Positions 28,545 to 59,788 of a stretch of 64,000 bases of DNA are shown one piece after another. The notes beneath the pieces were generated by a model. That model searched no databases. It was given only the letters and a program-made list of their open reading frames with translations, and was not told the DNA's origin. How positions within the stretch are numbered: position 1 is the first letter of the stretch; each line of letters begins with the position of its first letter. The stretch lies in assembly GCA_965235115.1 (NCBI GenBank), contig OZ249436.1, positions 1,924,001-1,988,000 of the forward strand, read 5' to 3'. Position numbers and translations under genes: made by a program. This DNA is from Laetmonice hystrix. Its lineage: Eukaryota.

Positions 28545-28574
28545 TGAAGAAAGCACGACTGACTGGACCTCCAG
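28545..28574 (+). CDS. unc-13: unc-13 coding exon 2 (30 nt; VKKARLTGPP)
   Basis: Acceptor TTTCTTCTGTTGCAG, donor GTAATA; phase 1-1 and in frame with exons 1 and 3 (cf. VKKAKFDGAQ). Confidence 0.93.
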
Positions 28575-32386: not shown

Positions 32387-32520
32387 ATACATTATGTATA
32401 CATGGACATGTTCCTGTGTACATTATGTATACATGTTCCTGTGTACATTATGTATACATGTTCCTGTGTACATTATGTATACATGTTCCTGTGTACATTA
32501 CCCACGGTATACATGTTACT
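32387..32520. repeat. 25-bp repeat TACATTATGTATACATGTTCCTGTG, about 5 copies
   Basis: Direct reading. Confidence 0.92.
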
Positions 32521-34462: not shown

Positions 34463-34496
34463 AGGTATTAGTCTCTTTCCTGGTGTTGTTTGTTGT

Positions 34497-35920: not shown

Positions 35921-35990
35921 AAGGTTTTTTTTCGTGTTTCAGTGTTGTTCGTTATTGTTGTTTTTGTCACGGTCTGACTGCGTTTTCTTT

Positions 35991-38900
35991 TGGTGTTACC
36001 CACAACAGACAGTAAAGTGACCTGTATACATGTACATGACCTCAGACTGCCTGTAGGTCCTGGCGTTAGGCGGCCAATACTGGTGTTACCCACAACAGAC
36101 AGTAAAGTGACCTGTATACATGTACATGACCTCAGACTGCCTGTAGGTCCTGGCGTTAGGCGGCCAATACTGGTGTTACCCACAACAGACAGTAAAGTGA
36201 CCTGTATACATGTACATGACCTCAGACTGCCTGTAGGTCCTGGCGTTAGGCGGCCAATACTGGTGTTACCTACAACAGACAGTAAAGTGACCTGTATACA
36301 TGTACATGACCTCAGACTGCCTGTAGGTCCTGGCGTTAGGCGGCCAATACTGGTGTTACCCACAACACTGACAGTAAAGTGACCTGTATACATGTACATG
36401 ACCTCAGACTGCCTGTAGGTCCTGGCGTTAGGCGGCCAATACTGGTGTTACCCACAACAGACAGTAAAGTGACCTGTATACATGTACATGACCTCAGACT
36501 GCCTGTAGGTCCTGGCGTTAGGCGGCCAATACTGGTGTTACCTACAACAGACAGTAAAGTGACCTGTATACATGTACATGACCTCAGACTGCCTGTAGGT
36601 CCTGGCGTTAGGCGGCCAATACTGGTGTTACCTACAACAGACAGTAAAGTGACCTGTATACATGTACATGACCTCAGACTGCCTGTAGGTCCTGGCGTTA
36701 GGCGGCCAATACTGGTGTTACCTACAACAGACAGTAAAGTGACCTGTATACATGTACATGACCTCAGACTGCCTGTAGGTCCTGGCGTTAGGCGGCCAAT
36801 ACTGGTGTTACCCACAACAGACAGTAAAGTGACCTGTATACATGTACATGACCTCAGACTGCCTGTAGGTCCTGGCGTTAGGCGGCCAATACTGGTGTTA
36901 CCCACAACAGACAGTAAAGTGACCTGTATACATGTACATGACCTCAGACTGCCTGTAGGTCCTGGCGTTAGGCGGCCAATACTGGTGTTACCCACAACAG
37001 ACAGTAAAGTGACCTGTATACATGTACATGACCTCAGACTGCCTGTAGGTCCTGGCGTTAGGCGGCCAATACTGGTGTTACCTACAACAGACAGTAAAGT
37101 GACCTGTATACATGTACATGACCTCAGACTGCCTGTAGGTCCTGGCGTTAGGCGACCAATACTGGTGTTACCCACAACAGACAGTAAAGTGACCTGTATA
37201 CATGTACATGACCTCAGACTGCCTGTAGGTCCCCACAACAGACAGTAAAGTGACCTGTATACATGTACATGACCTCAGACTGCCTGTAGGTCCTGGCGTT
37301 AGGGTGGTGTTACCCACAACAGACAGTAAAGTGACCTGTATACATGTACATGACCTCAGACTGCCTGTAGGTCCTGGCGTTAGGCGGCCAATACTGGTGT
37401 TACCCACAACAGACAGTAAAGTGACCTGTATACATGTACATGACCTCAGACTGCCTGTAGGTCCTGGCGTTAGGCGGCCAATACTGGTGTTATCCACAAC
37501 AGACAGTAAAGTGACCTGTATACATGTACATGACCTCAGACTGCCTGTAGGTCCTGGCGTTAGGCGACCAATACTGGTGTTACCCTCAACAGACAGTAAA
37601 GTGACCTGTATACATGTACATGACCTCAGACTGCCTGTAGGTCCTGGCGTTAGGCGGCCAATACTGGTGTTATCCACAACAGACAGTAAAGTGACCTGTA
37701 TACATGTACATGACCTCAGACTGCCTGTCGTTAGGCGGCCAATACTGGTGTTATCCACAACAGACAGTAAAGTGACCTGTATACATGTACATGACCTCAG
37801 ACTGCCTGTAGGTCCTGGCGTTAGGCGGCCAATACTGGTGTTACCCACAACAGACAGTAAAGTGACCTGTATACATGTACATGACCTCAGACTGCCTGTA
37901 GGTCCTGGCGTTAGGCGGCCAATACTGGTGTTACCTACAACAGACAGTAAAGTGACCTGTATACATGTACATGACCTCAGACTGCCTGTAGGTCCTGGCG
38001 TTAGGCGGCCAATACTGGTGTTACCCACAACAGACAGTAAAGTGACCTGTATACATGTACATGACCTCAGACTGCCTGTAGGTCCTGGCGTTAGGCGGCC
38101 AATACTGGTGTTACCTACAACAGACAGTAAAGTGACCTGTATACATGTACATGACCTCAGACTGCCTGTAGGTCCTGGCGTTAGGCGGCCAATACTGGTG
38201 TTACCTACAACAGACAGTAAAGTGACCTGTATACATGTACATGACCTCAGACTGCCTGTAGGTCCTGGCGTTAGGCGGCCAATACTGGTGTTACCCACAA
38301 CACTGACAGTAAAGTGACCTGTATACATGTACATGACCTCAGACTGCCTGTAGGTCCTGGCGTTAGGCGGCCAATACTGGTGTTACCCACAACACTGACA
38401 GTAAAGTGACCTGTATACATGTACATGACCTCAGACTGCCTGTAGGTCCTGGCGTTAGGCGGCCAATACTGGTGTTACCTACAACACTGACAGTAAAGTG
38501 ACCTGTATACATGTACATGACCTCAGACTGCCTGTAGGTCCTGGCGTTAGGCGGCCAATACTGGTGTTACCCACAACACTGACAGTAAAGTGACCTGTAT
38601 ACATGTACATGACCTCAGACTGCCTGTAGGTCCTGGCGTTAGGCGGCCAATACTGGTGTTACCCACAACAGACAGTAAAGTGACCTGTATACATGTACAT
38701 GACCTCAGACTGCCTGTAGGTCCTGGCGTTAGGCGACCAATACTGGTGTTACCCACAACAGACAGTAAAGTGACCTGTATACATGTACATGACCTCAGAC
38801 TGCCTGTAGGTCCTGGCGTTAGGCGGCCAATACTGGTGTTACCCACAACAGACAGTAAAGTGACCTGTATACATGTACATGACCTCAGACTGCCTGTAGG

Positions 38901-39093
38901 TCCTGGCGTTAGGCGGCCAATACTGGTGTTACCTACAACAGACAGTAAAGTGACCTGTATACATGTACATGACCTCAGACTGCCTGTAGGTCCTGGCGTT
39001 AGGCGGCCAATACTGGTGTTACCTACAACAGACAGTAAAGTGACCTGTATACATGTACATGACCTCAGACTGCCTGTAGGTCCTGGCGTTAGG
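35991..39093. repeat. 90-bp minisatellite, about 34 copies
   Basis: 30-aa periodic pseudo-ORFs on both strands; occasional 2-bp insertions and internal deletions. Confidence 0.98.
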
Positions 39094-40083
39094 TCCTGGA
39101 GCCTAGAGGCTGCACCGTGCAGACTTATAGTAAGACGACTACCTCTGTATCGTGTAGTGTCAGTGTTACCGCATACATTGGTCGGCCAGAGTGCCGGGAG
39201 AAACGGACGATAACCCGGAGGGGTTGGGTGCAAGAACTGGAGACAGTGTGTGTCTTCTCAAATTACCAACCAACTCGATTCACATGGCACACCCCTTGAG
39301 CCTTTTTCTCTCTCTCTCTCTCTCTCCAGAATCTGAGCACTGTCAAAGTTCTTTTTGAGTTTGTTTTGAAACGTTATGTCACGCGAAGAATATAAATAGC
39401 AACCGTAAATTTTATTCACAATTCAGTACAATCAGTGCTTATTCCAGGATATCTACACGGGGCAAGGTAGGAAGTGAAAGGGTGGAATTCCGCTGCATCC
39501 TCCCGAGATTAGATCTACTCAGATTCTTTGAGTCCAAAGTGAAACCACACGAGTCCAAACTAACTGAGTAACAGGTAACTCAGCATATAATAGATACATA
39601 CGGTACCCGTATTTTCCGGCAGATATTTAAGAGGGCATAGCTGCCTTTTTCCCCAGTAATCTCATTCCATGTATGATTGTCCGGTCTAGTGATTGGACAC
39701 CCGTCAAAGCCTGTGTCTCATATAGTCATACAGTGTCTCATACAGGACTTGTGTAGGCAGCATTCTACGTTTGGCCTGATTAGTCGGTGTGAGGTGTGAA
39801 AACAGCTGGCACCCTACCAGTTATGTGATTCCTGGTGGTTGGTTGTCCTCCCCTGGTGGCACAGGGTGGTAGGTCACCACTAGAGTAGTGTATGGGAGGG
39901 TATTGTATGTATACACCCAGTCTACTTGGCATTGTGGTTGTGTCATACATTAAAGTAGCCCTATAATCGCCGGGCTGGCGGGGGGGGGGGGGTATATATG
40001 GGATTTAGCATCGCTCAGTCCCCCCTAATATAAATACCTTTCATGGAGCCCCATGCATTTAAAGAAAAACACTTGTTCGGGAA

Positions 40084-40189
40084 GTGGCGGTGGCCTAGTG
40101 GGCATGGATGTCGACACCTTATGCTATGCGAATGGGTGCAGTAATCTTGGGGCCGGGGTTCGATTCCTGTAGAGGACTATACAACTTTT
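40084..40189 (+). other. tRNA-derived Pol III-type element (SINE head or tRNA pseudogene)
   Basis: A-box TGGCCTAGTGG 40091-40101, B-box GGTTCGATTCC 40157-40167, TTTT at 40186-40189; no intact cloverleaf. Confidence 0.5.
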
Positions 40190-40276
40190 CTCTTTCCGGA
40201 CATTCTCAAAGTAACCGGGATACGCCTGATGCCCGTGCATTTAAAAAAAATCACTCACAGCGACACCACTGATTTG

Positions 40277-40461
40277 AAATATTATGTTGGTATTTCTTTC
40301 TGACGTCAAGGTCAAATATTATGTTGGTATTTCTTTCCGACGTCAAGGTCAAATATTATGTTGGTATTTCTTTCCGACGTCAAGGTCAAATATTATGTTG
40401 GTATTTCTTTCCGACGTCAAGGTCAAATATTATGTTGGTATTTCTTTCCGACGTCAAGGTC
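40277..40461. repeat. 37-bp repeat, 5 copies
   Basis: Unit AAATATTATGTTGGTATTTCTTTCCGACGTCAAGGTC. Confidence 0.96.
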
Positions 40462-40855
40462 GAGCCATTTGCATCTTTGCGGTTTTAAGTCTCTTCCTTG
40501 AACTTCCGTGTATACACGACCAAAACGTGTCGTCGGTCAGATCAGCTCCACCTCGAAGATATTTAAGGTTCAAACAAATGGGAACTGGTGGGAACTCTCT
40601 AAACCGCCCGTCAAGTTTGGGGATTTTGTGTGTCCCTTCTCCCTGTAGGAAGGACAATGGGGGGACACATTGATGAACGATGCATATCGAACAATATACA
40701 GTAACATATATCTTATAAATTTAGCAATAATTGTATATTTATGATGAAATATGTAACCTGACTTTGTCGGGCTGTATCTTGTTTAGCGGTCGCCAACCCG
40801 CCCGATGCGAGTCAAAAAAGAGTCAAAACATTTGTAAATGTAGGTGTAACTGTCT

Positions 40856-40988
40856 AATATATTATATTCTTGAATCTTATATTGGAGGAATATATTATAT
40901 TCTTGAATCTTATATTGGAGGAATATATTATATTCTTGAATCTTATATTGGAGGAATATATTATATTCTTGAATCTGATATTGGAGGA
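40856..40988. repeat. 33-bp repeat, 4 copies
   Basis: Unit AATATATTATATTCTTGAATCTTATATTGGAGG. Confidence 0.96.
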
Positions 40989-41593
40989 CAGCGGAGTAAA
41001 ACATCACTGATTATAAGCCGTCTTCTTGAAGTTACAACTTTTGGCCAGCTACGTCCTTGGTTCAGTGAGCCAGCAGGTTGGTGTGGATGGTTCCACAGTT
41101 GGCTGAGTGACAGGACAGTCAGATTAGAGAAAAATGTAGGTAATGATAGAAATCCATTGGGGAAATGGGATCCTTCCTGTATTGCTTGGCAATCAGAGTT
41201 TCCAGTTAAACACTGCTGTAGCTTGAGCAGAATTAGGATGTAGGCGGGTTTCCCGAAGGATATTTTTAAGGAGTCGTATTTTTGGCCCCAAATACGATAT
41301 TAGACCTTTCTGGAATTGATCGTATTGAAGTTTTGTCCATTGACACGGAGGTTACCTCTGCCAATTGTAGCCACCTAGTGTCCTATTTGCTAACTAGGAT
41401 CCTGTCTAAGAGCGTTAGCGGGACTTAAGACCACATGTCTATAAATAAATTACTTCAGTGGCCAGTTGTATGGCTCCTCTATCGTAAAGTGCTGAAAGGC
41501 GAAACTACCACTCTAAAAGGGAGCTGTCTCCAGTGTACAGTTAAGCTCAGCATTGGAATATTACATGTGTTTAAATTACCCTGGTGTTCTCAG

Positions 41594-42486
41594 CGACGGC
41601 CCTTCCCTTACATTTAGTCACAAATAGAACCAGCATGAAGCGCGTAATGACCAATACTGACTCAGTCTCAATTATACCCGTTTCACCGATGGCCCTTCCC
41701 TTACATTTAGGACATGGTCACAAATAGAACCAGCATGAAGCGCGTAATGACCAATACTGACTCAGTCTCAATTATACCCGTTTCACCGATGGCCCTTCCC
41801 TAACATTTAGGACATGGTCACAAATAGAACCAGCATGAAGTGCGTAATGACCAACACTGACTCAGTCTCAATAATACCCGTTTCACCGATGGCCCTTCCC
41901 TCACATTTAGGACATGGTCACAAATAGAACCAGCATGAAGTGCGTAATGACCAACACTGACTCGGTCTCAATAATACCTGTTTCACCGATGGCCCTTCCC
42001 TAACATTTAGGACATGGTCACAAATAGAACCAGCATGAAGTGCGTAATGACCAACACTGACTCAGTCTCAATAATACCCGTTTCACCGATGGCCCTTCCC
42101 TAACATTTAGGACATGGTCACAAATAGAACCAGCATGAAGCGCGTAATGACCAATACTGACTCAGTCTCAATAATACCCGTTTCACCGATGGCCCTTCCC
42201 TTACATTTAGGACATGGTCACAAATAGAACCAGCATGAAGCGTGTAATGACCAACACTGACTCAGTCTCAATAATACCCGTTTCACCGATGGCTCTTCCC
42301 TTACATTTAGGACATGGTCACAAATAGAACCAGCATGAAGTGCGTAATGACCAATACTGACTCAGTCTCAATTATACCCGTTTCACCGATGGCTCTTCCC
42401 TTACATTTAGGACATGGTCACAAATAGAACCAGCATGAAGCGCGTAATGACCAACACCGACTCAGTCTCAATAATACCCGTTTCAC
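41594..42486. repeat. 100-bp minisatellite, 9 copies
   Basis: Unit CGATGGCCCTTCCC...AATACCCGTTTCAC. Confidence 0.97.
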
Positions 42487-42724
42487 ACTAGAGTACATAA
42501 AGCGTATCGAAGCGCATTGTAAAATTCGAACTTTTCAGAATGCGGTTTTTTGCGCACTTGAAGTGCACCATGAAGCTAATTCTAGAATTCGCATACCCGA
42601 CGTGAATTACAGAATTCTCTTTGCTTTGTTGCGGTATTTCAGACTAGTGTGAATGGTGTGGATTCTGCAGTACGGTTTGCAGCGGTTCGAAACGGTTCGA
42701 TTCGGTTTGTAGTGTGAATGGGGT
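42476..42724. mobile_element. MITE with PIF/Harbinger-like TIRs
   Basis: ACCCGTTTCACACTA versus TAGTGTGAATGGGGT (13/15 inverted match). Confidence 0.6.
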
Positions 42725-43066
42725 TTGAGGTGTCTCCCAAATACTTGCCTCGCGGGAGAATTTGGTAACTGTTCTGGGGACTTCTCCGTTAAGTTAGTAA
42801 AACGGTTTCCGTCGCCAAGAAGTCCCCAGATATGGGAGGGGGGGGGGGGGGTTCGCGGGGCAATCTTAGCTAGGCAGGGCCACGTTACTTAGTTCATTGC
42901 TCTGATGGTTTCAACCTTGGAATCAGGCAAAAACTAAAGATAGCAATCTTGATTTTAATGAAAAGGCTTAAATCAAAAGGGCAGAGGCGGAGTTTCAACC
43001 TGAAAGGTGCTACATCGTTTTTTTTTACTCTCGGAGGCAGTACTGACTGAGCTTGTTTCAGATACA

Positions 43067-43192
43067 CAGTGGGGGATCCAGGGGGCTAGGGGGCCCCCCC
43101 TTAGATTTCCTTTTTCTTCTTTTTTACAGTCAACCCCCCCCCCTCCCCAATGTAGGTGGGCCCCCCTTATCAAAATCCTGGATCGCCCACTG
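43067..43192. mobile_element. Short hAT-like MITE
   Basis: TIR CAGTGGGGGATCCAG / CTGGATCGCCCACTG (14/15); no clean 8-bp TSD. Confidence 0.65.
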
Positions 43193-43379
43193 ATAGTGAT
43201 ACACCATTGATGTCGTAGAGGTTTCTGATTCTAAGGTTGGTTACCGGGGCACGGTATTTATGTATACCCATAACCCATATATGTATTGATGGAGAAAGGG
43301 TATAAAAGCTCTAACGGCAGCTGAGAAAGACCTGTTTTCACAGTGAATGAATCAATATAAAGAGCTTTGAGACTAATAG

Positions 43380-44380
43380 AACATTGACAGCCAGCAGTCG
43401 AGGTAAAGTAACACAGACAGGATGTTGTAACATTGACAGCTAGCAGTCGAGGTAACACAGACAGGATGTTGTAACATTGACAGCTGGCAGTCGAGGTAAC
43501 ACAGACAGGATGTTGTAACATTGACAGCCAGCAGTCGAGGTAACACAGACAGGATGTTGTAACATTGACAGCCAGTAGTCGAGGTAAAGTAACACAGACA
43601 GGATGTTGTAACATTGACAGCCGGCAGTCGAGGTAACACAGACAGGATGTTGTAACATTGACAGCCAGCAGTCGAGGTAACACAGACAGGATGTTGTAAC
43701 ATTGACAGCCAGCAGTCGAGGTAACACAGACAGGATGTTGTAACATTGACAGCCAGCAGTCGAGGTAACACAGACAGGATGTTGTAACATTGACAGCCAG
43801 CAGTCGAGGTAACACAGACAGGATGTTGTAACATTGACAGCTAGCAGTCGAGGTAACACAGACAGGATGTTGTAACATTGACAGCTAGCAGTCGAGGTAA
43901 AGTAACACAGACAGGATGTTGTAACATTGACAGCCAGTAGTCGAGGTAAAGTAACACAGACAGGATGTTGTAACATTGACAGCCAGAAGTCGAAGTAACA
44001 CAGACAGGATGTTGTAACATTGACAGCCAGTAGTCGAGGTAACACAGACAGGATGTTCTAACATTGACAGCCAGAAGTCGAAGTAAAGTAACATAGACAG
44101 GATGTTGTAACATTGACAGCCAGCAGTCGAGGTAAAGTAACACAGACAGGATGTTGTAACATTGACAGCCAGTAGTCGAGGTAACACAGACAGGATGTTG
44201 TAACATTGACAGCTAGCAGTCGAGGTAACACAGACAGGATGTTGTAACATTGACAGCCAGTAGTCGAGGTAACACAGACAGGATGTTGTAACATTGACAG
44301 CTAGCAGTCGAGGTAACACAGACAGGATGTTGTAACATTGACAGCCAGTAGTCGAGGTAACACAGACAGGATGTTGTAAC
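43380..44380. repeat. 44/49-bp minisatellite, about 22 copies
   Basis: Unit AACATTGACAGCCAGCAGTCGAGGT(AAAGT)AACACAGACAGGATGTTGT. Confidence 0.98.
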
Positions 44381-45004
44381 GACCTCGACTCTGTGTTCTA
44401 CCTACAGCAATGACAAACGTACACGGTTCAGGTTTACAAGATTGGCGCGATGGTACAAGACGGGTTTCCAAGAATCATTGATTTATACCATAATACTTCA
44501 TACAAATAGTTCTTCTTTACAGCAGCTCCAGCTTCTGGTGAAAGCGTCTGTGAAAAAGTTTTTTTTCTGTTCTGGCGATGTGTCAAAGTAAATATCGTAA
44601 GAGGGAATGATTTCAGTGTGGCAGGGTGGTTTAGTAGGTCGAGAAAGTTCAGCCTAGTTGGAGATAATTTGCTATTGTATAATGGCCACCAACTTGGTGA
44701 TACGGGAATACAGTTAAAGGCTCGGGATCGGGAGAGTGAAACAAGTGATAGAATTTTAGTTTTATAATTTGGTAGATATATTATAACGGGAATCTTCCCG
44801 ATTTAGGATAAAGCAAAGACAATGGTTTAAATATAATAAAAAAAAACATATTGAGCCCTCGGCAGTTACTGGCTGGCATTTCTGTAGGATTTACCGATTT
44901 TAAAATACAGATAGGTCATTACAAACCTCAATTCAAGATTGGACGATGGCAGTCATGACCATGATAACTTTGAACAGTTATGTGTTGTGATAAAGTGCAT
45001 GGCG

Positions 45005-46369
45005 TCCATGTTATGGTGGGCAGGGGTTATGTTACCAATGGTGACCATGTTATAGTGGGCAGGGGTTATGTTACCAATGGTGACCATGTTATAGTGGCCA
45101 GGGGTTATGTTACATGGTGACCATGTTATAGTGGGCAGGGGTTATGTTACATGGTGACCATGTTATAGTGGGCAGGGTTTATGTTATATGGTGACCATGT
45201 TATAGTGGGCAGGGGTTATGTTACATGGTGACCATGTTATAGTGGGCAGGGTTTATGTTACATGGTGACCATGTTATAGTGGGCAGGGGTTATGTTACAT
45301 GGTGACCATGTTATAGTAGGCAGGGTTTATGTTACATGGTGACCATGTTATAGTGGGCAGGGGTTATGTTACATGGTGACCGTGTTATAGTGGGCAGGGG
45401 TTATGTTACATGATGACCATGTTATAGTGGGCAGGGGTTATGTTACATGGTGACCATGTTATAGTGGGCAGGGCTTATGTTACATGGTGACCGTGTTATA
45501 GTGGGCAGGGTTTATGTTACATGGTGACCATGTTATAGTGGGCAGGGGTTATGTTACATGGTGACCGTGTTATAGTGGGCAGGGGTTATGTTACATGATG
45601 ACCATGTTATAGTGGGCAGGGGTTATGTTACATGGTGACCATGTTATAGTGGGCAGGGGTTATGTCACATGGTGACCGTGTTATAGTGGGCAGGGGTTAT
45701 GTATGATGACCATGTTATAGACATCGTGGGCAGGGGTTATGTTACATGGTGACAATGTTTGTTATAGTGGGCAGGGGTTATGTTACATGGTGACAGTGTT
45801 ATAGTGGGCAGGGGTTATGTTATATGGTGACCATGTTATAGACATAGTGGGCAGGGGTTATGTTACATGGTGACCGTGTTATAGTGGGCAGGGGTTATGT
45901 TACATGATGACCATGTTATAGTGGGCAGGGGTTATGTTACATGGTGACCATGTTATAGTGGGCAGGGGTTATGTCACATGGTGACCGTGTTATAGTGGGC
46001 AGGGGTTATGTATGATGACCATGTTATAGACATAGTGGGCAGGGGTAATGTTACATGGTGACAATGTTTGTTATAGTGGGCAGGGGTTATGTTACATGGT
46101 GACAATGTTATAGTGGGCAGGGGTTATGTTACATGGTGACCATGTTATAGTGGGCAGGGGTTATGTTACATGGTGACAGTGTTATAGTGGGCAGGGGTTA
46201 TGTTATATGGTGATCATGTTATAGACATAGTGGGCAGGGGTTATGTTGTATGTTGATATTGTTTGTTATAGTGGGCAGGGGTTATGTTACATGGTGACCA
46301 TGTTATAGTGGGCAGGGGTTATGTTACATGGTGACAATGTTTGTTATAGTGGGCAGGGGTTATGTTACC
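45005..46369. repeat. 37-bp minisatellite, about 36 copies
   Basis: Unit CCATGTTATAGTGGGCAGGGGTTATGTTACATGGTGA. Confidence 0.98.
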
Positions 46370-47349
46370 AGGGCACAGGTGGTTTAAACGGTCTCGGCCT
46401 TCAGTTTAATCCCCCCGGGTCGGCTGAGCTCCTGGCGGCCGCCTGGGCACCACTACTGGTATGATCCGCTAGGCTGTGTGTTTGAGCCGTGTGGTGAGGA
46501 GGGAGAAGGTGAGGGGCGGGGGCGGGGGGAGGGGGTCATTACCAGTAAGGTCACCTTGTGGTCGTATAGCCAGGTGGCAATCCCCATGGTACATCTCCAT
46601 GAAGTTCTGTTGTAAGATTCCGTTGTAAAAATCTACCACTATCCCTGCCCTACCCCTCACTTTCTCCCCATACACCCCTAACAAACATATCCCTAATCCT
46701 ATACCTGCCCTTTACCCTGGGGGTTCAACCCATGCTATAGTTTAGGAGAGCTACCATCGCTCGGACAGGTTCATGACATTGAGGAATTCATCCAACGATT
46801 TATGAACAGAAAGGGCCACCTCTTTCTGTTCGTGCATTGTACTAATATGATTAAAGGGAATAGGTTTAAAATTCTGTGATTGAGTTTTTCTCATGCCTTC
46901 CGTTGATGATTAGTGATGTCTCAAGCAGTGAATCAGTTATATGACGTAAACTGAGTGAGCATTTTACTTGTAGGTAATTTCCTGAGGACTATGTCAATCC
47001 TACTATTGCTAAGCTGACTATGACCGTAAAAAGCTCTGCCCTAACGAACTGGGGACTGAGACTTAGAGAATTAAACTGCTGCGACACATACCACATAACA
47101 CGGGTGACTTATGGATGGCTGCGGAAGGAGAGGTACTCTACAAAATTTGATGATAATCACTAAGAATCAAACACAATCCTTGGACCTTATCCCTTAACTT
47201 CCGTCCACAAATATCTCCCCCCCCCCCCATCGACATGATACACACACAAAATCTGATACTCTTCTTGAAGAAGGTGACACAGGCAGTTGTATCGGGTAGC
47301 AAGGCCGGCCAGTAGGTGGCTCTGTTTGCCTGCAGCCTTCCCGGTGTGT

Positions 47350-47612
47350 GGATGGGTGGGTCAGTGGTTCCCACAGAGCTGTGGGTGGCTGGGTGGTTCC
47401 CGCAGAGCTGTGGGTGGCTGGGTGGCTGGGTGGGGGTTTCCCCCAGAGCTGTGGGTGGGTGAGTGGTTCCCGCAGAGCTGTGGGTGGGTGGGTGAGGGTT
47501 TCCCCCAGAGCTGTGGGTGGGTGAGTGGTTCCCGCAGAGCTGTGGGTGGGTGGGTGAGGGTTTCCCACAGAGCTCTGGGTGGCTGGGTGGCTGGGTGGGG
47601 GTTTCCCCCAGA
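47350..47612 (+). repeat. G-rich compound repeat (CAGAGCTGTGGGTGGGTG...)
   Basis: Direct reading; multiple GGG runs. Confidence 0.9.
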
Positions 47613-48589
47613 GATGTGTGTGTTTAGCAGGGTGGGTGAGGGGGCACAGACAGTGTCACCCATACAAATTTAATTTCAACCGTTTGTGCGGGAATACTGT
47701 TCTCAATTCGATTATATTTGAAATTAGATTAACCTTTTATTAGCATGGTTCAGGTCGGATAGCAATGTATTCCTGTGAGAGAATCAAGGGAATGACATTT
47801 TTGCCCAAGATATACATTATTGAGGATTTCTTTACCCGAGAATATTGATTGGATAGAAGTGTCTTTCTCTTCGCAATGGTTGCTCGTCCCCTGTAGTTTC
47901 ACCTTCCATTCTCATGCGTCGGTTTTCATCTTTTATCAATAGTAACCTCTGGTTTCAGCCGACTGTGTTGAAGTAGATTCGTTGCCGTATGGCATTGTGA
48001 TGGGATAAACATATTATTTTATTTCAGACTCAGACATAATTATTTTGACAACTAACTAGTGAAGTGGTTTTTGAAGTACATGTTGTATATGAATATGTAA
48101 ACTGAGTATTTACATATTGAAACCCATCCCTGATAGTGTACCCACCCTGCAAAAATATCAACTGTAAGGGAACAAGACATTTGGAAAACTGATTGTCAGA
48201 CGAGCAGAATTCTCCCTTATAAATATCGTCTGGCTGTGACGAGCGGCAATGTTTATCATGCGCGGGTTGTGAACTTCCGGGGGGTAACATACTCAAACCC
48301 TCATTAGGCTTCCAGGGTTTGGCTAATAAACACTGCCGCTCGTCACAGCTAGACGATATTAGGTTCTGAGGCATGTGTATGGGAAATGTTGAACTTGTGA
48401 TTTACAGAATGATGTGCTTTAATTGTTACAATAATTGAGACATTGTGGTACATGTATATTAATATACTTTAATCTTGTGCTCACCATTGTCATTGTTGTG
48501 ATTTTACCTCATATATATGTAACCCAGTATTAACCTTCTACCTTCCTTCCTTCCTTCCTTCTCTCACTCCTCTCCTGTCCACCTAACAG

Positions 48590-48592
48590 AAG
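48590..48592 (+). CDS. unc-13: Candidate 3-nt alternative microexon (AAG) of unc-13
   Basis: 60-nt AG-free pyrimidine-rich tract, then CTAACAG | AAG | GTAAGA; frame-preserving. No transcript evidence. Confidence 0.35.
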
Positions 48593-48597
48593 GTAAG

Positions 48598-48900
48598 ACA
48601 AGATAATATATCCTTATACAAGATAATATATCCTTATACAAGATAATATATCCTTATACAAGATAATATATCCTTATACAAGATAATATATCTTTATACA
48701 AGATAATATATCCTTATACAAGATAATATATCCTTATACAAGATAATATATCCTTATACAAGATAATATATCCTTATACAAGATAATATATCCTTATACA
48801 AGATAATATATCCTTATACAAGATAATATATCTTTATACAAGATAATATATCTTTATACAAGATAATATATCTTTATACAAGATAATATATCTTTATACA
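48598..48900. repeat. 20-bp minisatellite AGATAATATATCCTTATACA, 15 copies
   Basis: Direct reading; C>T variant enriched in the last units. Confidence 0.98.
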
Positions 48901-49399
48901 AACTGACTTGACACACCAATTGGTAGACACCTAACCTCCGTGTGCCAGGTTCAGATCAATGCTTGCACTCGTTTCACGACCCAGTATAAACATGGCAAAC
49001 CTGGGAAAAAACTGACCAAAAACATTGTGAAGATATGTTCAACTCGGAATATAACCAGTCCCTTTCAAACCATTTGGCTCAGTTTTCTTAACGCCAGTTA
49101 CAAGATATGTTTGACCGAAGATGAAAAGATTTTAAAAGATGTATTGGTAGACTGCGTAACTATAAATTTTAGTTTGTTTGTTCATGTATTGTAGCCATGT
49201 TTTCCCGCAGGGGATAAATACTGATTTGAGTGCAGGCACCGGGAAAAAAATTGACTTTGGCACTGCACGCATGCCTTTACATTATACCTTCATCACATTG
49301 AACTGGATCGAATATAATCGTCTTCAGATTTTAAAGTGCTCAGAAAGACCATGCTGCAATTCGGCCTAGATTTGATGTGTGAATTTCAAAGAGGGGATG

Positions 49400-51800
49400 A
49401 CTCCCTGAAGAAGTCCTTTGATTGGTTAAATTTAGTCGTAGATTAGTAGGATTTAGCCAATCAAAAGACAGAGCAGGTAGAATAAAGTGTTTACGATGAT
49501 CCAGTATGATTTGGGACAGGTCCATGGCTCAGAAATGGCACCTAACACACACAGTAGCCCATAGCACAATGTCGAATCACAAAGTCGTGACACTTTAGAG
49601 TTTAGATCATCACATTTATTAATATTTCTTTTTAAATTCTCATCAGGTGAATGGTGAATCAACCGAAAGCATTAAAAACAATTGGAAGTTTTCACGATGT
49701 ACATTATTCAGGATAAAGTAATTTTCTTATATTTTCGATATATGAACGCTCATAATTTACATGAATCAGAAACTTGTTTTCATCCCAAGACTGGAATCGT
49801 GTAGCTTTTGAATTCATGAATTTATTAGGCACAAAAGTACACTTTACACTTACACTCCATGAGTATTATCAGATACGAGTGGTGCACCATTCACAACTGA
49901 AAGCGCGGTATCTTCACTGATTTAATTCTTTTGAGAGCTTCCGTATGACATTTATACCATCAGTATCATGTGGTCTACCCAATCCGTCTTTTAAATGTCA
50001 TTTTCTGAGTGACTCCTTGTCAGAGAAACCTCAATAGTAAGATGATTCCTATTTACATCATTCAGAGAATCGTAGATTCTTTTCTTTTATTAGGTAATCT
50101 GAACTGTGTATCAAGTGTCTTTCCCGAAGTTCAATATGCAAACGATGTCTTTCCGAAACAAAAGTGCAGTATCATATAAAATGTTTCAGAAACCAAAGAA
50201 TAAAATCTTTTTCAAATGCGGTAAGGCACCTTTTCAGTGACCGAAGAATAAAATCTTTGTCCAATCAAGACCTCAGATTTTAACCATTAGTCATGTCACT
50301 GGCAACAAGTGACAAAATCACCATAACTATCAACTTTTTCAAACAAATTCTACGTATATTTTCAACTGCTATTTTATACTCGGGTGCTGACTTTTATCAA
50401 CCGTAAAAGGCTTCTGATGCCATCTTTTGAAAATTTTTAAGAGGAACGCCCTTAAAACTACAGTGCACAATTCACGTAAACCCAAATTGCCATGGAATCG
50501 GTAAAACACGATTTTTTGGAATACGATTTATCTTTGACTACCGTACTATAGAAGCTACTTGCCAGCATATAAAATAATAACAATAATATACAAGCTCCGA
50601 CAGGCTATATGCAGCAGTTAGTTTTGCATAAGAATGCAAATTAGACTCGACAGATCCTTTCTTATATTGAATGGTGGTCTCCTTGTCACCCTAAAATTAA
50701 TAACGCTTGTTTCGCGTTATTTCTCTCATCGATTTGTTGCCAGAGGTATTCCTCCCAGTGCTCTTATCTTTGTTAACTGTGCCCCATGAACAATAGAACT
50801 TATCATGTTATCCATCTCCAGGATTAGGTACGGGAAACCCCCTCCAATGTAATTAAATTCAGGCCACTAATAAATCCATGAATCTCAGCATATCATCACG
50901 AATTCGTGCTCGAAGAAACAATATGTAACTAAAAACAACGATTGGTCAATAGAAAAATCTCACAGTCAGTAGCGATTGTACTCTGGCCTTGCAATATCAC
51001 ACGCATGAAATAAGCCAATCATGTCCGCTGATATTGCAGCTATTGACCTCTGTACCCATCTGTCTGGTAGAGTTAAATTTTGTATAAGTCTGCACGAAAT
51101 CCTTGAGTGGAGATGGAACAAATACCTGATATCTACGTAATCTGTTATATGATTGTGCTCCATGTGCAACAAGACTGTTATCTTGTTGCACATGGAATCT
51201 GCATGAGATGTGGAGTAAATACAAACGTTTCTGGTACCCTTTCAACAGATGGTTCCACCCCGGGTATGTAGTCTCTCTACTCTACGTACAGCCCTATTGA
51301 CGTCTTCATTGTCGCTACCTACATTGATTTTCTTCGTAAACAAAGAGCATGCCCCCAAGTAGACAGAAACCATATTTTATTCTTTGTGTGTTACAAAGCC
51401 AATGTCTACTGTATTGCTATATCGTATCTGTGGTTCGTTTCGTTATGGTGCCATGGCACAACTGTTCCAGTCTTGGAGCTGTATCCTCCCTCGTGTGTAG
51501 ATACTTAGCCGGGTGTTATATCATAAATGCAGTGTATTTTTTTGTTCATGTTTTCTTTTAATACGAAACTGTGTCTGTTGTGCGAGAATGAAAGATGTTG
51601 AAGTTTAGAATAAAGATAATCTTTGTCGTTCTCAGCTTTGGTGGAAAAAGCTTAGTTCTAAATTGTAGTCTGTGCTCGTAGATTTTTCTTTTGAGTGAGA
51701 GTAGCTGCATGATGACCCTGCATGAAAAAATGATTTTACTCCTGTGTCGCAGACAGGAATTCTGTGTTTCGCTCATTTTTGCAGCGACTTTGCATTTCAA
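49400..51800 (-). mobile_element. Degenerate CMC-EnSpm-like transposase remnant
   Basis: Minus-strand fragments in order: TSIGLYVE, KGTRNVCIY, PLKDFVQ, RSIAAISADMIG, TLEGV, APEYKI, GALPHL (cf. animal EnSpm LY.DD..NPLG, PLI.DL, GT....ADNLG, HDLLEG, GPL). Many stops; by eye only; limits approximate. Confidence 0.4.
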
Positions 51801-52073
51801 AAGGCTATGGTCCAGTCAGTTCTGGAACAGAAATTAAAACATCAACCACAATCGTGCAAAAAGGCAAAAATCCTTTTCAGTGTCGGAAGTCGCCTAGTCA
51901 ATGGAAATAACTGATGGTACTAATCGAGTCACAGAAGGAACTTGGTCGTTAACCTACTGACGAGACCGATGAAAATATTCACAGTTCACAGTCGACGGCT
52001 GAAAATGTCAGACAGAGCGTGTGGTGAGAGAAAAAGATATTGTTGGAGGAGATTCAAGGTGTCCGGCGTGGAG

Positions 52074-55000
52074 GCAGGCTGCAGTGATGGGGTTCACTGT
52101 CTCATAACACACAGTCAAACAATTCGCTCAGGTCAGGCCGGGCTGCAGTGATGGGGTTCACTGTCTCATAACACACAGTCAAACAATTCGCTCAGGTCAT
52201 GCCAGGCTGCAGTGATGGGGTTCACTGTCTCATAACACACAGCCACACAATCCGCTCAGGTCAGGCCGGGCTGCAGTGATGGGGTTCACTGTCTCATAAC
52301 ACACAGTCACACAATCCGCTCAGGTCAGGCCAGGCTGCAGTGATGGGGTTCACTGTCTCATAACACACAGTCACACAATCCGCTCAGGTCAGGCCGGGCT
52401 GCAGTGATGGGGTTCACTGTCTCATAACACATAGTCACACAATCCGCTCAGGTCAGGCCAGGCTGCAGTGATGGAGTTACTGTCTCATAACACATAGTCA
52501 CACAATCCCTCAGGTCAGGCCGGGCTGCAGTGATGGGGTTCACTGTCTCATAACACATAGTCACACAATCCCTCAGGTCAGGCCGGGCTGCAGTGATGGG
52601 GTTCACTGTCTCATAACACATAGTCACACAATCCCTCAGGTCAGGCCGGGCTGCAGTGATGGGGTTCACTGTCTCATAACACATAGTCACACAATCCGCT
52701 CAGGTCAGGCCAGGCTGCAGTGATGGGGTTCACTGTCTCATAGCACACAGCCACACAATCCGCTCAGGTCAGGCCGGGCTGCAGTGATGGGGTTACTTTC
52801 TCATAACACACAGCCACACAATCCGCCCAGGTCAGGCCAGGCTGCAGTGATGGGGTTCACTGTCTCATAACACACAGCCACACAATCCGCTCAGGTCAGG
52901 CCGGGCTGCAGTGATACGATTACTGTCACTGTGGTACTGTGTGAGTCTCATAACACACAGCCACACAATCCGCTCAGGTCAGGTAGGCTGCAGTGATGGG
53001 GTTCACTGTCTCATAACACACAGTCACACAATCCGCTCAGGTCAGGTAGGCTGCAGTGATGGGGTTCACTGTCTCATAACACACAGCCACACAATCACAA
53101 TCCGCTCAGCTCAGGCCGGGCTGCAGTGATGGGGTTCACTGTCTCATAACACACAGTCACACAATCCGCTAAGGTCAGGCCAGGCTGCAGTGATGGGGTT
53201 CACTGCCTCATAACACATAGTCACACAATCCGCTCAGGTCAGGCCGGGCTGCAGTGATGGGGTTCACTGTCTCATAACACATAGTCACACAATCCGCTCA
53301 GGTCAGGCCGGGCTGCAGTGATGGGGTTCACTGTCTCATAACGCACAACCACACAATCCGCTCAGGTCAGGCCAGGCTGCAGTGATGGGGTTCACTGTCT
53401 CATAACACACAGTCAAACAATTCGCTCAGGTTAGGCTAGGCTGCAGTGATACGGTTACTGTCTCATAACGCAGTCACACAATCCGCTCAGGTCAGGCCAG
53501 GCTGCAGTGATGGGGTTCACTGTCTCATAACACACAGCCACACAATCTCCGCTCAGGTCAGGCCAGGCTGCAGTGATGGGGTTCACTGTCTCATAACACA
53601 CAGTCACACAATCCGCTCAGGTCAGGCCAGGCTGCAGTGATACGATTACTGTCACTGTGGTACTGTGTGAGTCTCATAATACACAGCCACACAATCCGCT
53701 CAGGTCAGGCCGGGCTGCAGTGATGGGGTTACTGTCACTGTGGTACTGTGTGAGTCTCATAATACACAGCCACACAATCCGCTCAGGTCAGGCCGGGCTG
53801 CAGTGATGGGGTTACTGTCACTGTGGTACTGTGTGAGTCTCATAATACACAGCCACACAATCCGCTCAGGTCAGGCCGGGCTGCAGTGATGCGATTACTG
53901 TCACTGTGGTACTGTGTGAGTCTCATAATACACAGCCACACAATCCGCTCAGGTCAGGCCGGGCTGCAGTGATGAGGTTACTGTCTCATAACACACAGCC
54001 ACACAATCCGCTCAGGTCAGGTAGGCTGCAGTGATGGGGTTCACTGTCTCATAACACACAGCCACACAATCCGCTCAGGTCAGGCCAGGCTGCAGTGATA
54101 CGATTACTGTCACTGTGGTACTGTGTGAGTCTCATAATACACAGCCACACAATCCGCTCAGGTCAGGCCGGGCTGCAGTGATGAGGTTACTGTCTCATAA
54201 CACACAGCCACACAATCCGCTCAGGTCAGGTAGGCTGCAGTGATGGGGTTCACTGTCTCATAACACACAGCCACACAATCCGCTCAGGTCAGGCCAGGCT
54301 GCAGTGATGGGGTTCACTGTCTCATAACACACAGCCACACAATCCGCTCAGGTCAGGCCAGGCTGCAGTGATGGGGTTACTGTCTCATAACACACAGCCA
54401 TACAATCCGCTCAGGTCAGGCCAGGCTGCAGTGATACGATTACTGTCACTGTGGTACTGTGTGAGTCTCATAACACACAGCCACACAATCCGCTCAGGTC
54501 AGGCAGGCTGCAGTGATGGGGTTCACTGTCTCATAACACACAGCCACACAATTCGCTCAGGTCAGGCCAGGCTGCAGTGATGGGGTTACTGTCTCATAAC
54601 ACACAGCCACACAATCCGCTCAGGTCAGGCCAGGCTGCAGTGATACGATTACTGTCACTGTGGTACTGTGTGAGTCTCATAATACACAGCCACACAATCT
54701 CCGCTCAGGTCAGGCCAGGCTGCAGTGATGGGGTTCACTGTCTCATAACACACAGCCACACAATCTGCTCAGGTCAGGCCGGGCTGCAGCGATGATGTCT
54801 CATAACACACAGCCACACAATCCGCTCAGGTCAGGCCGGGCTGCAGTGATGATGTCTCATAACACACAGCCACACAATCCGCTCAGGTCAGGTAGGCTGC
54901 AGTGATTGGGTTCACTGTCTCATAACACACAGCCACACAATCCGCTCAGGTCAGGCCAGGCTGCAGTGATGGGGTTCACTGTCTCATAACACACAGCCAC

Positions 55001-56348
55001 ACAATCCGCTCAGGTCAGGCAGGCTGCAGTGATGGGGTTACTGTCTCATAACACACAGCCATACAATCCGCTCAGGTCAGGCCAGGCTGCAGTGATACGA
55101 TTACTGTCACTGTGGTACTGTGTGAGTCTCATAACACACAGCCACACAATCTCCGCTCAGGTCAGGCCGGGCTGCAGTGATGAGGTCTCATACACACAGC
55201 CACACAATCCGCTCAGGTCAGGCCGGGCTGCAGTGATGGGGTTCACTGTCTCATAACACACAGCCACACAATCCGCTCAGGTCAGGCCAGGCTGCAGTGA
55301 TGGGGTTCACTGTCTCATAACACACAGCCATACAATCCGCTCAGGTCAGGCCAGGCTGCAGTGATACGATTACTGTCACTGTGGTACTGTGTGAGTCTCA
55401 TAACACACAGCCACACAATCTCCGCTCAGGTCAGGCCGGGCTGCAGTGATGAGGTCTCATACACACAGCCACACAATCCGCTCAGGTCAGGCCGGGCTGC
55501 AGTGATGGGGTTACTGTCTCATAACACACAGCCACACAATCCGCTCAGGTCAGGCCGGGCTGCAGTGATGGGGTTCACTGTCTCATAACACACAGTCACA
55601 CAATCCGCTCAGGTCAGGTAGGCTGCAGTGATGGGGTTCACTGTCTCATAACACACAGCCACACAATCCGCTCAGGTCAGGCCAGGCTGCAGTGATGGGG
55701 TTACTGTCTCATAACACACAGCCACACAATCCGCTCAGGTCAGGTAGGCTGCAGTGATGGGGTTCACTGTCTCATAACACACAGCCACACAATCCGCTCA
55801 GGTCAGGCCAGGCTGCAGTGATGGGGTTACTGTCTCATAACACACAGTCACACAATCCGCTCAGGTCAGTCCGGGCTGCAGTGATGGGGTTACTGTCTCA
55901 TAACACACAGTCACACAATCTGCTCAGGTCAGGCCGGGCTGCAGTGATGGGGTTACTGTCTCATAACGCAGTCACACAATCCGCTCAGGTCAGGCCGGGC
56001 TGCAGTGATGGGGTTCACTGTCTCATAACACACAGCCACACAATCCGCTCAGGTCAGGTAGGCTGCAGTGATGAGGTTACTGTCTCATAACACACAGCCA
56101 CACAATCCGCTCAGGTCAGGCCAGGCTGCAGTGATGGGGTTACTGTCTCATAACACACAGTCACACAATCCGCTCAGGTCAGGCCGGGCTGCAGTGATGG
56201 GGTTCACTGTCTCATAACACACAGTCACACAATCCGCTCAGGTCAGGCCAGGCTGCAGTGATGGGGTTACTGTCACTGTGGTACTGTGTGAGTCTCATAA
56301 TACACAGCCACACAATCCGCTCAGGTCAGGCCAGGCTGCAGTGATGAT
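52074..56348. repeat. 64-bp minisatellite with interspersed longer (about 83-bp) variant, roughly 63 copies
   Basis: Unit GGCTGCAGTGATGGGGTTCACTGTCTCATAACACACAGCCACACAATCCGCTCAGGTCAGGCCA; the variant carries ACTGTCACTGTGGTACTGTGTGAGTCTC. Confidence 0.98.
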
Positions 56349-56869
56349 GTTCAACGACACTGTGATGTAACATCCAAGTACAAGTGGGAAAGAGTCTCCC
56401 CTATTATGCAGGTCAAAATATTGAAGCAGACTAAGTTTGTTATTAAGTGACCTGGCTTTCATAACCTCAATGAAATGGGGGTTTTTTGCGCTAAGGTAGG
56501 GTGATAAGTATCGGCATGCTACTTATTCCATAGTCTTACATCCAAATTGTAACAGATTTATAGAGCATTCTATGTAGGGCTGCCTAACTTTTACAACTGT
56601 ATCAACTTTTAGAACAAGAAAGTGATATAAAATCATGATGTGGGAATTTCTCATGTTTTGTAACCGTAATGTGATCATTTATTTCCTTCTAGTCGCTTGC
56701 ATTCAAGTGGATGAAGTTGTTAAAATGTGGCACATCTGGAAAAGTGCAAACAATAGAAAGCTTGGAAAGCCTCGGTTTAAAGAACAAGTTTCTACTGCCT
56801 TTTGGAAAAGAAAAAAACAATGCTTAAAGATCTGAACAAAGAGTTGGGAGTGTCAGGCACAGATGTATG

Positions 56870-57100
56870 AAAGAAATGTTTCAAAACCTGACCTAGGTCA
56901 ACATGAAAGTGCGAGTGGTTGGCCATTAAGGCGAGAATAGGGGAGAGAATGGCAAACATAGTCAACATTCCATTTCGTTTTGAATGCTGCCTTTCAGGCA
57001 TTGTGTCGTTTGTTCTGTGTCCATAATTCTGTTTCTGGATATTGCTTATCACGTCATGCAAACAAAGACTGGTACAAGTGTAAAACTGCCGTAAATCGCT
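56870..57100 (-). mobile_element. Possible hAT C-terminal dimerisation-domain remnant
   Basis: RDKQYP...PERQHS...LALMANHSHFHVDLGQVLKHF resembles CD...YPN...ERSFS...LA.M.IH....IDL..VI..F. Confidence 0.3.
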
Positions 57101-57625
57101 ATCAATGTATTGATGTCAAACTACTGTTGGCCGCCTTGTGCTATTATGGCAGCCATTCCTATTTCGACTTCAGAATACGCAGCCCTACCACTACAATTTG
57201 TCAGTTTATTTGTATTATATTACTTTGATGTGGTATGATTATTTCGATCTGGCATATTTTTCCTCATTTAGTCCAAAAAGATATGAATATTCGCGCAAAC
57301 TCAATGATTCGGGATCTGTTAGATCAGCACAAGCCAGTGATTTCAATGTTAAACCATTCTACAGTTTCTAGTCACCAAAAATATTTATCACTCTACTGGG
57401 TTTATTTGAATGCACACTGTTCATTAAGCGTGAATTAGAGTCTGGATAAAACAGACAAAAAAAAAAGAAAAAGAAAACAACTATCCGGTTTGTGTAGCCA
57501 TGATTCCAGGTTTAATAGTGCCGTAATACAAGAAAAATGAACGTGAATATGCAGCTCTTAGTTCAGGACTGTCCGTCTGAGAAAAGGAAAATCAATTTAC
57601 ATGACTGTATCTTTTGGTATAGCAG

Positions 57626-57641
57626 TGGTGCCCTCTGGTGG
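57626..57641 (-). promoter_or_regulatory. CTCF-like motif in intron 2
   Basis: Reverse complement CCACCAGAGGGCACCA matches the CTCF consensus. Confidence 0.45.
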
Positions 57642-58042
57642 GAGAACGTATAGTAGCCGACAAGAGGAATTTGTATTAAAAGCATTTTAAAATTGATTTT
57701 AGGCCTGTAACGATACTTGTATCATTTGAACATTCTGAACGATAGTAACGGGTAGTAATAGAACAGAGTCATGTTTTTGGTATCCTCCTCACCGAAATCT
57801 GTTTTGAAGATGTTATGGACGTCGTGACGCGTGCTTCACGTTGTTTATATTAACTGTGACGTAGTTACGACTGCAGGAAATCACGCTCATAAATGGTTCA
57901 GCAGCTATTACTGCAAATGGAATCGTACAATCTTAGACTCGATACAGAATGGTGTAATTGTGGGTAATTATAGTGCCGACGATTCTCGTCATCTGAAACT
58001 CTAAGTGGCGGAAGTCAGTTGTTCAGGGTACGAAGGAGAGAT

Positions 58043-58412
58043 TTGTTACACATAACCACCGAAACAACTCTAAATTCTAACCAATGTTACAGATAACCAC
58101 CGAAACAACTCTAAATTCTAACCAATGTTACAGATAACCACCTAAACAACTCTAAATTCTAACCAATGTTACAGATAACCACTGAAACAACTCTAAATTC
58201 TAACCAATTGTTACCGATAACCACCGAAACAACTCTAAATTCTAACCATTGTTACACATAACCATCGAAACAACTCTAAATTCTAACCATTGTTACAGAT
58301 AACCACTGAAACAACTCTAAATTCTAACCAATGTTACAGATAACCACCGAAACAACTCTAAATTCTAACCAATGTTACAGATAACCACCGAAACAACTCT
58401 AAATTCTAAACA
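58043..58412. repeat. 41-bp minisatellite, 9 copies
   Basis: Unit TGTTACAGATAACCACCGAAACAACTCTAAATTCTAACCAA. Confidence 0.97.
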
Positions 58413-59688: not shown

Positions 59689-59788
59689 ATAAGTTTCACA
59701 CGTATGTGACTCTCAAGCTACAAAATGTGAAGTCTACAACAATTGCCGTCAAAGGCAATAATCCTAGTTGGGAGCAAGACTTCATGTT
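59689..59788 (+). CDS. unc-13: unc-13 coding exon 3 (100 nt; [33 protein letters not shown] + TT), C2A domain
   Basis: Acceptor TTCATCTTTCAG, donor GTAAGT; near-identical to Munc13 [34 protein letters not shown]. Confidence 0.97.

What the first reader, a model, noticed from the sequence alone, without database searches (positions are those of the whole stretch)
48528..48600. Candidate 3-nt AAG microexon that would insert one glutamate into the Unc-13 C2A domain
Seen: branch-point-like TATTAAC (48528-48534), a 60-nt AG-free pyrimidine-rich tract, acceptor CTAACAG, exon AAG (48590-48592) and strong donor GTAAGA. Inclusion converts CCA G|AT (P-D) to CCA G|AAG|AT (P-E-D), giving GPPEDKF in frame. 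A 20-bp array starts right after the donor. Known: neural microexons have long tracts and strong donors, a 3-nt AAG exon exists in NCAM, and microexons occur elsewhere in unc-13/Unc13b genes. Inference: a possibly undescribed single-residue switch in the dimerisation/RIM-binding domain, or alternatively a zero-length recursive site (AAG|GT). Part of the tract is a (CCTT)n repeat, so chance is possible.
Basis: partly seen in the sequence, partly recalled or inferred. Interest (0 to 1): 0.7.

Follow-up and report, generated by a model that had tools for sequence, protein, structure and literature searches.

The report
Candidate three-base exon in unc-13
A long intron of an invertebrate's unc-13 gene, which controls neurotransmitter release, holds unusually complete splice signals around three bases that would add one glutamate to a surface loop of the protein; no RNA evidence is yet available, but clams and scallops insert extra residues at the same junction.

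Summary
The motif is exactly as described: TATTAAC, a 60-nt AG-free pyrimidine tract, CAG|AAG|GTAAGA, 20 kb into the 31-kb intron 2 of an invertebrate unc-13. It is the only strong acceptor-like site in that intron, and such a site followed by a MAG|GTRAG donor arose in 2 of 1000 simulated introns (32 of 1000 with loose thresholds). Inclusion gives P-E-D in the beta1-beta2 loop of C2A, which is not among the interface residues named for the Munc13-1 homodimer or the RIM complex. Splicing is not shown: no RNA run was available. The site is missing from 17 of 17 complete orthologous introns (all short) and 0 of 714 proteins show a +1 acidic isoform. New support: RefSeq isoforms of scallops (+4 aa) and of clams and Dreissena (+23/25 aa) carry optional inserts at this same exon 2/3 junction. 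Best reading: a lineage-restricted alternative 3-nt microexon (about 0.55). Rivals: unused chance site (0.33); zero-length recursive site (0.1). It is not the known unc-13 microexon, which lies between the CaM and C1 domains.

The parts
28265..28286 (+). unc-13 exon 1, coding part (MSLLCIC + G), donor GCG|GTGAGT
   Evidence: matches N-termini of named Unc-13 proteins
28545..28574 (+). unc-13 exon 2, 30 nt (VKKARLTGPP + G), donor CAG|GTAATA; phase-1 end
   Evidence: same 30-nt exon in orthologous loci
28575..59688 (+). intron 2, 31,114 nt, about 48% tandem repeats; the candidate splits it into 20,015 and 11,096 nt
48528..48534 (+). branch-point-like TATTAAC (TTAAC 60 nt upstream of the exon)
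   Evidence: motif match only
48535..48582 (+). pyrimidine tract: (CCTT)n then CU-rich TCTC/CTCT; inside a 60-nt AG-free zone; no TGC
48583..48589 (+). acceptor CTAACAG, first AG after the tract
48590..48592 (+). candidate 3-nt microexon AAG (also the distal AG of a CAG-AAG tandem acceptor)
   Evidence: not seen in RNA
48593..48598 (+). donor AAG|GTAAGA, 7 of 9 matches to the CAG|GTAAGT consensus (constitutive donors here: 6, 7, 6)
48598..48901 (+). 20-bp tandem array, 15.2 copies, no GT in the unit; one of 19 arrays in this intron, probably incidental
59689..59788 (+). unc-13 exon 3, 100 nt ([33 protein letters not shown]), beta2-beta4 of C2A

Best explanation
A lineage-restricted, alternatively spliced 3-nt microexon. 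The distal branch point and long CU-rich tract load U2AF/SF1 (and give PTB-type repressors a site), the first AG after the tract (CAG) is the acceptor, and U1 binds the strong AAG|GTAAGA donor. Because both sites cannot be occupied at once across 3 nt, one flanking intron is removed first. When included, probably in neurons, G|AAG|AT adds Glu between P17 and D18 in the beta1-beta2 loop of C2A. Shown: the signals, their rarity, the reading frame, the loop position. Inferred: that the site is used, that use is neural, and any effect on the protein. The likely effect is small and indirect: the loop lies at the same tip as the beta5-beta6 loop that carries homodimer residues I70 and D72, and at the tip opposite the RIM contacts at residues 31-33 (inference from strand order, not measured).
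For: Only strong acceptor-like site in 31 kb and immediately followed, in frame, by a 7/9 donor; 2 of 1000 simulated introns give this, 0 of 1000 in frame; 0 of 32 antisense control sites have an in-frame donor. Long AG-free zone, CU-rich tract, distal branch point and strong donor match the described neural microexon layout (passages of 10.1101/2021.02.24.432780 and 10.1101/2024.09.17.613571). The constitutive acceptors of this gene also have long AG-free zones (56 and 53 nt). The junction takes optional inserts elsewhere: Mizuhopecten +4 aa in 12 of 13 listed entries, Mercenaria +23 in 7 of 8, Ruditapes 1 of 7, Dreissena +25 in 13 of 15, Mya 10 of 12. 36 of 504 scorable proteins, arthropods where named, have one more residue here constitutively, so +1 is tolerated. 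unc-13 genes carry microexons in worm, fly and mouse (PMC12287369). Fly and mouse microexon sets are almost wholly different, so absence in distant taxa is expected.
Against: No comparable 3-nt element in 17 of 17 distinct complete intron-2 sequences, 12 of them from loci whose exon 3 is 94-97% identical; these introns are only 0.1-4.6 kb. 0 of 714 proteins show a +1 acidic form, and the closest transcript contig (L033) has the skipped form. No TGC between branch point and AG, whereas 74-79% of human SRRM3/4 targets have one. Part of the tract is a (CCTT)n microsatellite in a genome full of pyrimidine repeats. Thresholds are post hoc; loose ones give 32 of 1000, and a weaker CAG-TAT-GTAAGT turned up in another locus (L043). 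The bivalve inserts are known only as annotated proteins; the scallop one could be an alternative acceptor rather than a cassette.
Confidence: 0.55

Rival explanations
1. Unused or barely used chance site: a degenerate (CCTT)n microsatellite happens to be followed by CAG-AAG-GTAAG, and the spliceosome ignores it or uses it only as noise.
For: Absent from 17 of 17 complete orthologous introns; no +1 isoform in 714 proteins; intron is 48% tandem repeats and the window has long TC arrays; no TGC; found by a scan over very many windows; 32 of 1000 under loose thresholds.
Against: Four independent signals line up in order and in frame; 2 of 1000 under strict thresholds, 0 of 1000 in frame; 0 of 32 antisense controls; same junction is alternatively extended in bivalves.
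Confidence: 0.33
2. Zero-length recursive (ratchet) site: exon 2 is joined to the distal AG of CAG-AAG, recreating CAG|GTAAGA, so the 31-kb intron leaves in pieces of 20 and 11 kb with no change in the protein.
For: AG|GT is present; intron and segment sizes fall in the fly range (introns 11-133 kb, segments 2.6-64 kb; 10.1101/006163); the shorter orthologous introns would not need one.
Against: The first AG after the tract is the CAG, 3 nt upstream; positions -6/-5 of the distal AG are CA, whereas 196 of 197 fly ratchet points have TT; fly sites need a cryptic exon of about 50 nt with its own donor (PMC8605326), but the first GTR downstream is 330 nt away and weak.
Confidence: 0.1

Closest known systems
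Neural microexons under SRRM3/4 (eMIC) control, 3-27 nt (PMC4387716; 10.1101/2021.02.24.432780; 10.1101/2024.09.17.613571; passages read)
   Same: Length a multiple of 3, long AG-free zone, CU-rich tract and branch point set back from the AG, strong donor, synaptic host gene.
   Different: No UGC near the acceptor; neural inclusion and eMIC dependence untested.
Known unc-13/Unc13b microexon (9 nt VLK in C. elegans and fly, 6 nt in mouse; PMC12287369, PMC4387716; passages and one section read)
   Same: Same gene family, microexon adding a few residues.
   Different: That exon lies between the CaM site and C1 and is conserved; this one is in C2A and was not found in other taxa. Lingula isoforms show the known one as 0, 1 or 2 VMQ units.
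Optional inserts at the unc-13 exon 2/3 junction in bivalve RefSeq isoforms (e.g. XP_021362642.1 with and XP_021362643.1 without, Mizuhopecten)
   Same: Same junction, same loop, in frame, present in some isoforms and absent in others; the scallop insert also ends in Glu.
   Different: 4 or 23-25 residues, not 1; genomic basis not seen; no sign of homology beyond position.
Drosophila ratchet points (10.1101/006163, whole text; PMC8605326, passages)
   Same: AG|GT inside a long intron after a strong tract.
   Different: Competing upstream CAG, no TT at -5/-6, no evident cryptic-exon donor.

Membership tests
Unc-13/Munc13 with N-terminal C2A | Sequence match to Munc13-1 C2A and conserved 22/30/100-nt exon layout | tested here: met
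   model of a close relative matches 2CJS/2CJT
Alternative microexon (<=27 nt) | Flanked by acceptor and donor, frame-preserving | tested here: met
Alternative microexon (<=27 nt) | Present in spliced mRNA | not testable with these tools
   No RNA holder listed; the three runs behave as DNA
Alternative microexon (<=27 nt) | Conserved in relatives | tested here: not met
   0 of 17 complete intron-2 sequences; no close relative with a long intron was available, so this excludes deep conservation only
eMIC/SRRM3/4-dependent neural microexon | Long AG exclusion zone, CU-rich tract, distal branch point, strong donor | tested here: met
   60 nt; 5 TCTC/CTCT; TTAAC at -60; donor 7 of 9
eMIC/SRRM3/4-dependent neural microexon | UGC between branch point and AG (in about three quarters of human cases) | tested here: not met
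   no TGC in the 70 nt upstream (frequency)
eMIC/SRRM3/4-dependent neural microexon | Neural-specific inclusion that depends on the eMIC factor | not testable with these tools
   needs tissue RNA-seq and knockdown
Conserved unc-13 CaM-C1 microexon (VLK type) | Position between CaM site and C1 domain | tested here: not met
   site is between codons 17 and 18 of C2A
Fly-type ratchet point | Juxtaposed AG|GT in an intron over 11 kb | tested here: met
Fly-type ratchet point | TT at -6/-5 and AG being the first after the tract | tested here: not met
   CA at -6/-5; CAG lies 3 nt upstream
Fly-type ratchet point | Sawtooth coverage and exon-to-ratchet junction reads | not testable with these tools
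   no total-RNA data

The most novel reading that the evidence does not exclude
The beta1-beta2 loop of Unc-13 C2A is a repeatedly and independently recruited splicing switch in invertebrates: +1 Glu through a 3-nt exon here, +4 in scallops, +23/25 in clams and Dreissena, fixed +1 in arthropods. Neuron-type-specific inclusion would tune C2A homodimer stability or C2A-MUN autoinhibition, and so release probability, giving unc-13 a second regulated microexon site that is not in the papers I could search.
Probability: 0.15. Interest if true: 0.65.

Novelty: new member of a known kind. Interest (0 to 1): 0.36.

Why it matters
C2A sets whether Unc-13 is an inhibited homodimer or bound to RIM, so an optional residue in it would be a minimal way to tune vesicle priming by cell type. 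A 3-nt exon in a 31-kb intron is also likely to be missed by routine annotation, and it is a clean test case for how such exons are spliced without a UGC motif. The bivalve isoforms make the junction worth testing even if this site is a chance match. As it stands it is one unconfirmed example of a well-known class.

Tried and rejected
No whole genome is held. Run search: no RNA holder listed; this says nothing on expression. Laying the three runs on 47650-48640 showed flat depth and DNA-type behaviour, and the tool skipped 48532-48640 as repeat, so alleles at the element were not seen; two 344-nt contigs starting at 48284 would end at 48627, just where the array begins to repeat, which fits no indel across the tract but the letters were not shown. 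No named annelid protein came up in three homolog searches, so the organism is not placed: closest are unnamed metagenome loci (exon 3 94-97% identical), then Glandiceps 30/33 and Lingula 29/33; 'annelid' is my guess from recall. A single-sequence fold failed (pLDDT 35) and was redone with a 36-row alignment (pLDDT 85). Other AG-NNN-GTRAG sites in the window (26681, 46504, 59056) lack any tract and were rejected. A 7-bp pairing of the branch region with the exon appeared in a 106-nt fold but vanished in a 181-nt fold; rejected. The donor does not derive from the 20-bp unit. Fish proteins with longer junctions (P0060, P0662, P0686) begin with Gly and look like donor read-through or mis-annotation; not counted. 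No passage on loop residues 17-19 in 10.1101/2024.01.24.577102. Earlier scan findings: nothing on this gene or place. No complex prediction was run.

Full report
Gene and observation. The window holds the first three coding exons of an invertebrate unc-13 on the + strand: 28265-28286, 28545-28574 and 59689-59788. Exon 3 matches the Munc13-1 C2A structures 2CJT and 2CJS. Intron 2 is 31,114 nt, about 48% tandem repeats. At 20,015 nt from exon 2 and 11,096 nt from exon 3 lie, in order, TATTAAC (48528-34), a tract with 47 pyrimidines in 53 bases inside a 60-nt AG-free zone, CTAACAG, AAG (48590-92) and GTAAGA. Skipping gives GPPDKF and inclusion GPPEDKF. The organism is not identified: no named annelid protein came up, and the nearest sequences are unnamed metagenome loci, then Glandiceps and Lingula.

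Chance. It is the only YAG in intron 2, on either strand, with an AG-free zone of 40 or more and 75% pyrimidines. Markov copies of the intron gave such a site with a GTRAG within 27 nt in 7 and 8 of 150 runs and in frame in 5 and 4 of 150. With the full MAG|GTRAG donor the figure was 2 of 1000 at any offset, 0 of 1000 in frame, and 32 of 1000 under loose thresholds. In 288 kb of antisense sequence (36 of the 58 loci, near-duplicates and some short loci dropped, plus the window), 32 acceptor-like sites had 1 donor within 27 nt and none in frame. The thresholds were set after seeing the site, Markov models under-produce microsatellites, and the site was chosen from a very large scan, so this is suggestive, not proof.

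Architecture. The donor matches the consensus (recalled) at 7 of 9 positions, against 6, 7 and 6 for the constitutive donors. The tract is richer than those of exons 2 and 3 (0.83 against 0.63 and 0.60), has five TCTC/CTCT words, and the branch-like TTAAC is 60 nt upstream; there is no TGC. Passages of 10.1101/2021.02.24.432780 list long AG exclusion zones, UGC, UCUC-rich tracts and strong branch points for eMIC-dependent exons, and say that the fly and mouse sets are almost wholly different. Passages of 10.1101/2024.09.17.613571 add strong donors and UGC in 74-79% of cases. So the site has the general layout but lacks UGC. Passages of PMC10250204 report both splicing orders, with UGC more prevalent where the downstream intron goes first; upstream-first splicing here is my inference.

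RNA. None was reachable. The run search listed no RNA holder. The three runs laid behave as DNA, show a high-copy element at about 48.2-48.36 kb and single-copy depth up to 48531 in two runs, and the tool skipped 48532-48640. Use of the site is therefore untested.

Conservation. A metagenome scan gave 58 loci. Nineteen hold exon 2 and exon 3 with the whole intron, 17 after removing two duplicates of L008: 12 with exon 2 of the VKKARL(S/I)GP(P/S) type, L035, L043 and three arthropod-like. None has a 3-nt element with a tract and a GTRAG donor; the only 3-nt hit under loose rules is a weak one in L035. These introns are 105 to 4,564 nt, and their distance from this species is unknown. L033, a transcript contig and the closest spliced sequence (31/33 and 9/10 identical), has the skipped form. 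Deep conservation is excluded; conservation among close relatives is untested.

Proteins. Of 713 proteins gathered, 42 had no C2A motif and 167 no recognisable exon 2; of the other 504, 414 have the standard spacing and 36 have one more residue. The named ones among the 36 are arthropods, and arthropod-like loci start exon 3 further upstream, so this is a fixed extension showing that +1 is tolerated. None of 714 sequences has a +1 acidic form. Annotation does capture 9-nt exons in this gene (Lingula); whether it captures 3-nt ones is unknown. The unexpected result is in bivalves: optional inserts at exactly this junction, +4 (AAEE) in 12 of 13 listed Mizuhopecten entries and in Pecten and Argopecten, +23 in 7 of 8 Mercenaria and 1 of 7 Ruditapes, +25 in 13 of 15 Dreissena and 10 of 12 Mya entries (clusters were listed only in part, at most 15 members each). 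Listed oyster, mussel, gastropod, Lingula, Glandiceps, amphioxus and lamprey isoforms lack them. These are computational annotations, and the scallop insert could come from an alternative acceptor.

Protein position. A model of the L033 C2A (pLDDT 85; top matches 2CJS and 2CJT) has strands at 2-12 and 21-28, so the residue goes into the beta1-beta2 loop. Numbering equals that of rat Munc13-1 at Y23, K32, S33, E63, W65 and D72. PMC1472246 (parts 2-4 of 8 read) names Y23, K32, S33, E63, W65, I70 and D72 for the homodimer and V31, S33, the residue-32 carbonyl, strands 3-4 and the C-terminal helix for RIM; its Figure 3 with the full contact list is not held. By strand order the loop is at the tip opposite the RIM contacts and beside the beta5-beta6 loop, so at most an indirect effect on the homodimer is expected (inference).

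Rivals. A recursive site would use the distal AG of CAG-AAG. Sizes fit the fly range (10.1101/006163, whole text), but the CAG comes first, the TT at -6/-5 seen in 196 of 197 fly sites is missing, and no good cryptic-exon donor follows (PMC8605326 passages). I give it 0.1. An unused chance site gets 0.33, resting on the lack of conservation, the microsatellite part of the tract and the selection effect. The 20-bp array is one of 19 in the intron and looks incidental.

What is known. The published unc-13 microexon is 9 nt (VLK) in worm and fly and 6 nt in mouse, between the CaM site and C1 (PMC12287369, passages and section 14, with no occurrence of C2A; PMC4387716 passages). Three-base exons are known (PMC4387716, PMC4674806 passages); the NCAM case is recalled only. 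Searches for a C2A microexon found no paper: unc-13 + microexon + 3-nt, 0; Munc13 + C2A + microexon, 0; unc-13, microexon, 3 nt, C2A, one paper with three terms and no C2A (PMC8378409, listing only); microexon + unc13 gave 21 papers, 19 listed, of which I opened two. The library lacks most subscription papers, and supplements and VastDB were not read.

Verdict. A real and well-formed candidate, more likely than not a lineage-restricted 3-nt alternative exon (0.55), unconfirmed in RNA and not deeply conserved; a new member of a known class. The switch function is speculative. Interest 0.36.

Noticed in passing
proteins P0277, P0423-P0436 (scallops); P0292, P0329, P0334, P0511-P0546 (Mercenaria, Ruditapes, Dreissena, Mya): Bivalve Unc-13 isoforms carry optional 4-aa or 23/25-aa inserts at the exon 2/3 junction (C2A beta1-beta2 loop); the long insert is similar across four genera.
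   Followed up: partly
proteins P0270, P0375-P0385 (Lingula): The known CaM-C1 microexon position shows 0, 1 or 2 copies of VMQ, which suggests a tandemly duplicated 9-nt microexon.
   Followed up: no
L043:7953-7955: CAG-TAT-GTAAGT, a weaker 3-nt candidate, in the intron at the known CaM-C1 microexon position of another unc-13; may be real or chance.
   Followed up: no
window 48222-48360: MITE-like element: 35-nt inverted arms, 94% complementary, with read depth up to about 25-45 times that of the flanks.
   Followed up: partly
window 28100-28134: TGACGTCA (CRE-like) at 28100 and CAAAATGGCG (YY1-like) at 28125, 140-165 nt upstream of the start codon, suggest the promoter (motif names recalled).
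   Followed up: no
window 28575-59688: Intron 2 is 31 kb with 19 tandem arrays covering 48%, whereas 17 orthologous introns are 0.1-4.6 kb.
   Followed up: partly
L054, L057: Two loci lack intron 2 altogether (exons 2 and 3 fused) and have a divergent loop.
   Followed up: no
window 47890, 47915, 48047, 48068: Runs X2 and X3 differ from the window at two bases, and X2 by two 1-nt indels, while X1 matches it: the locus is polymorphic.
   Followed up: no
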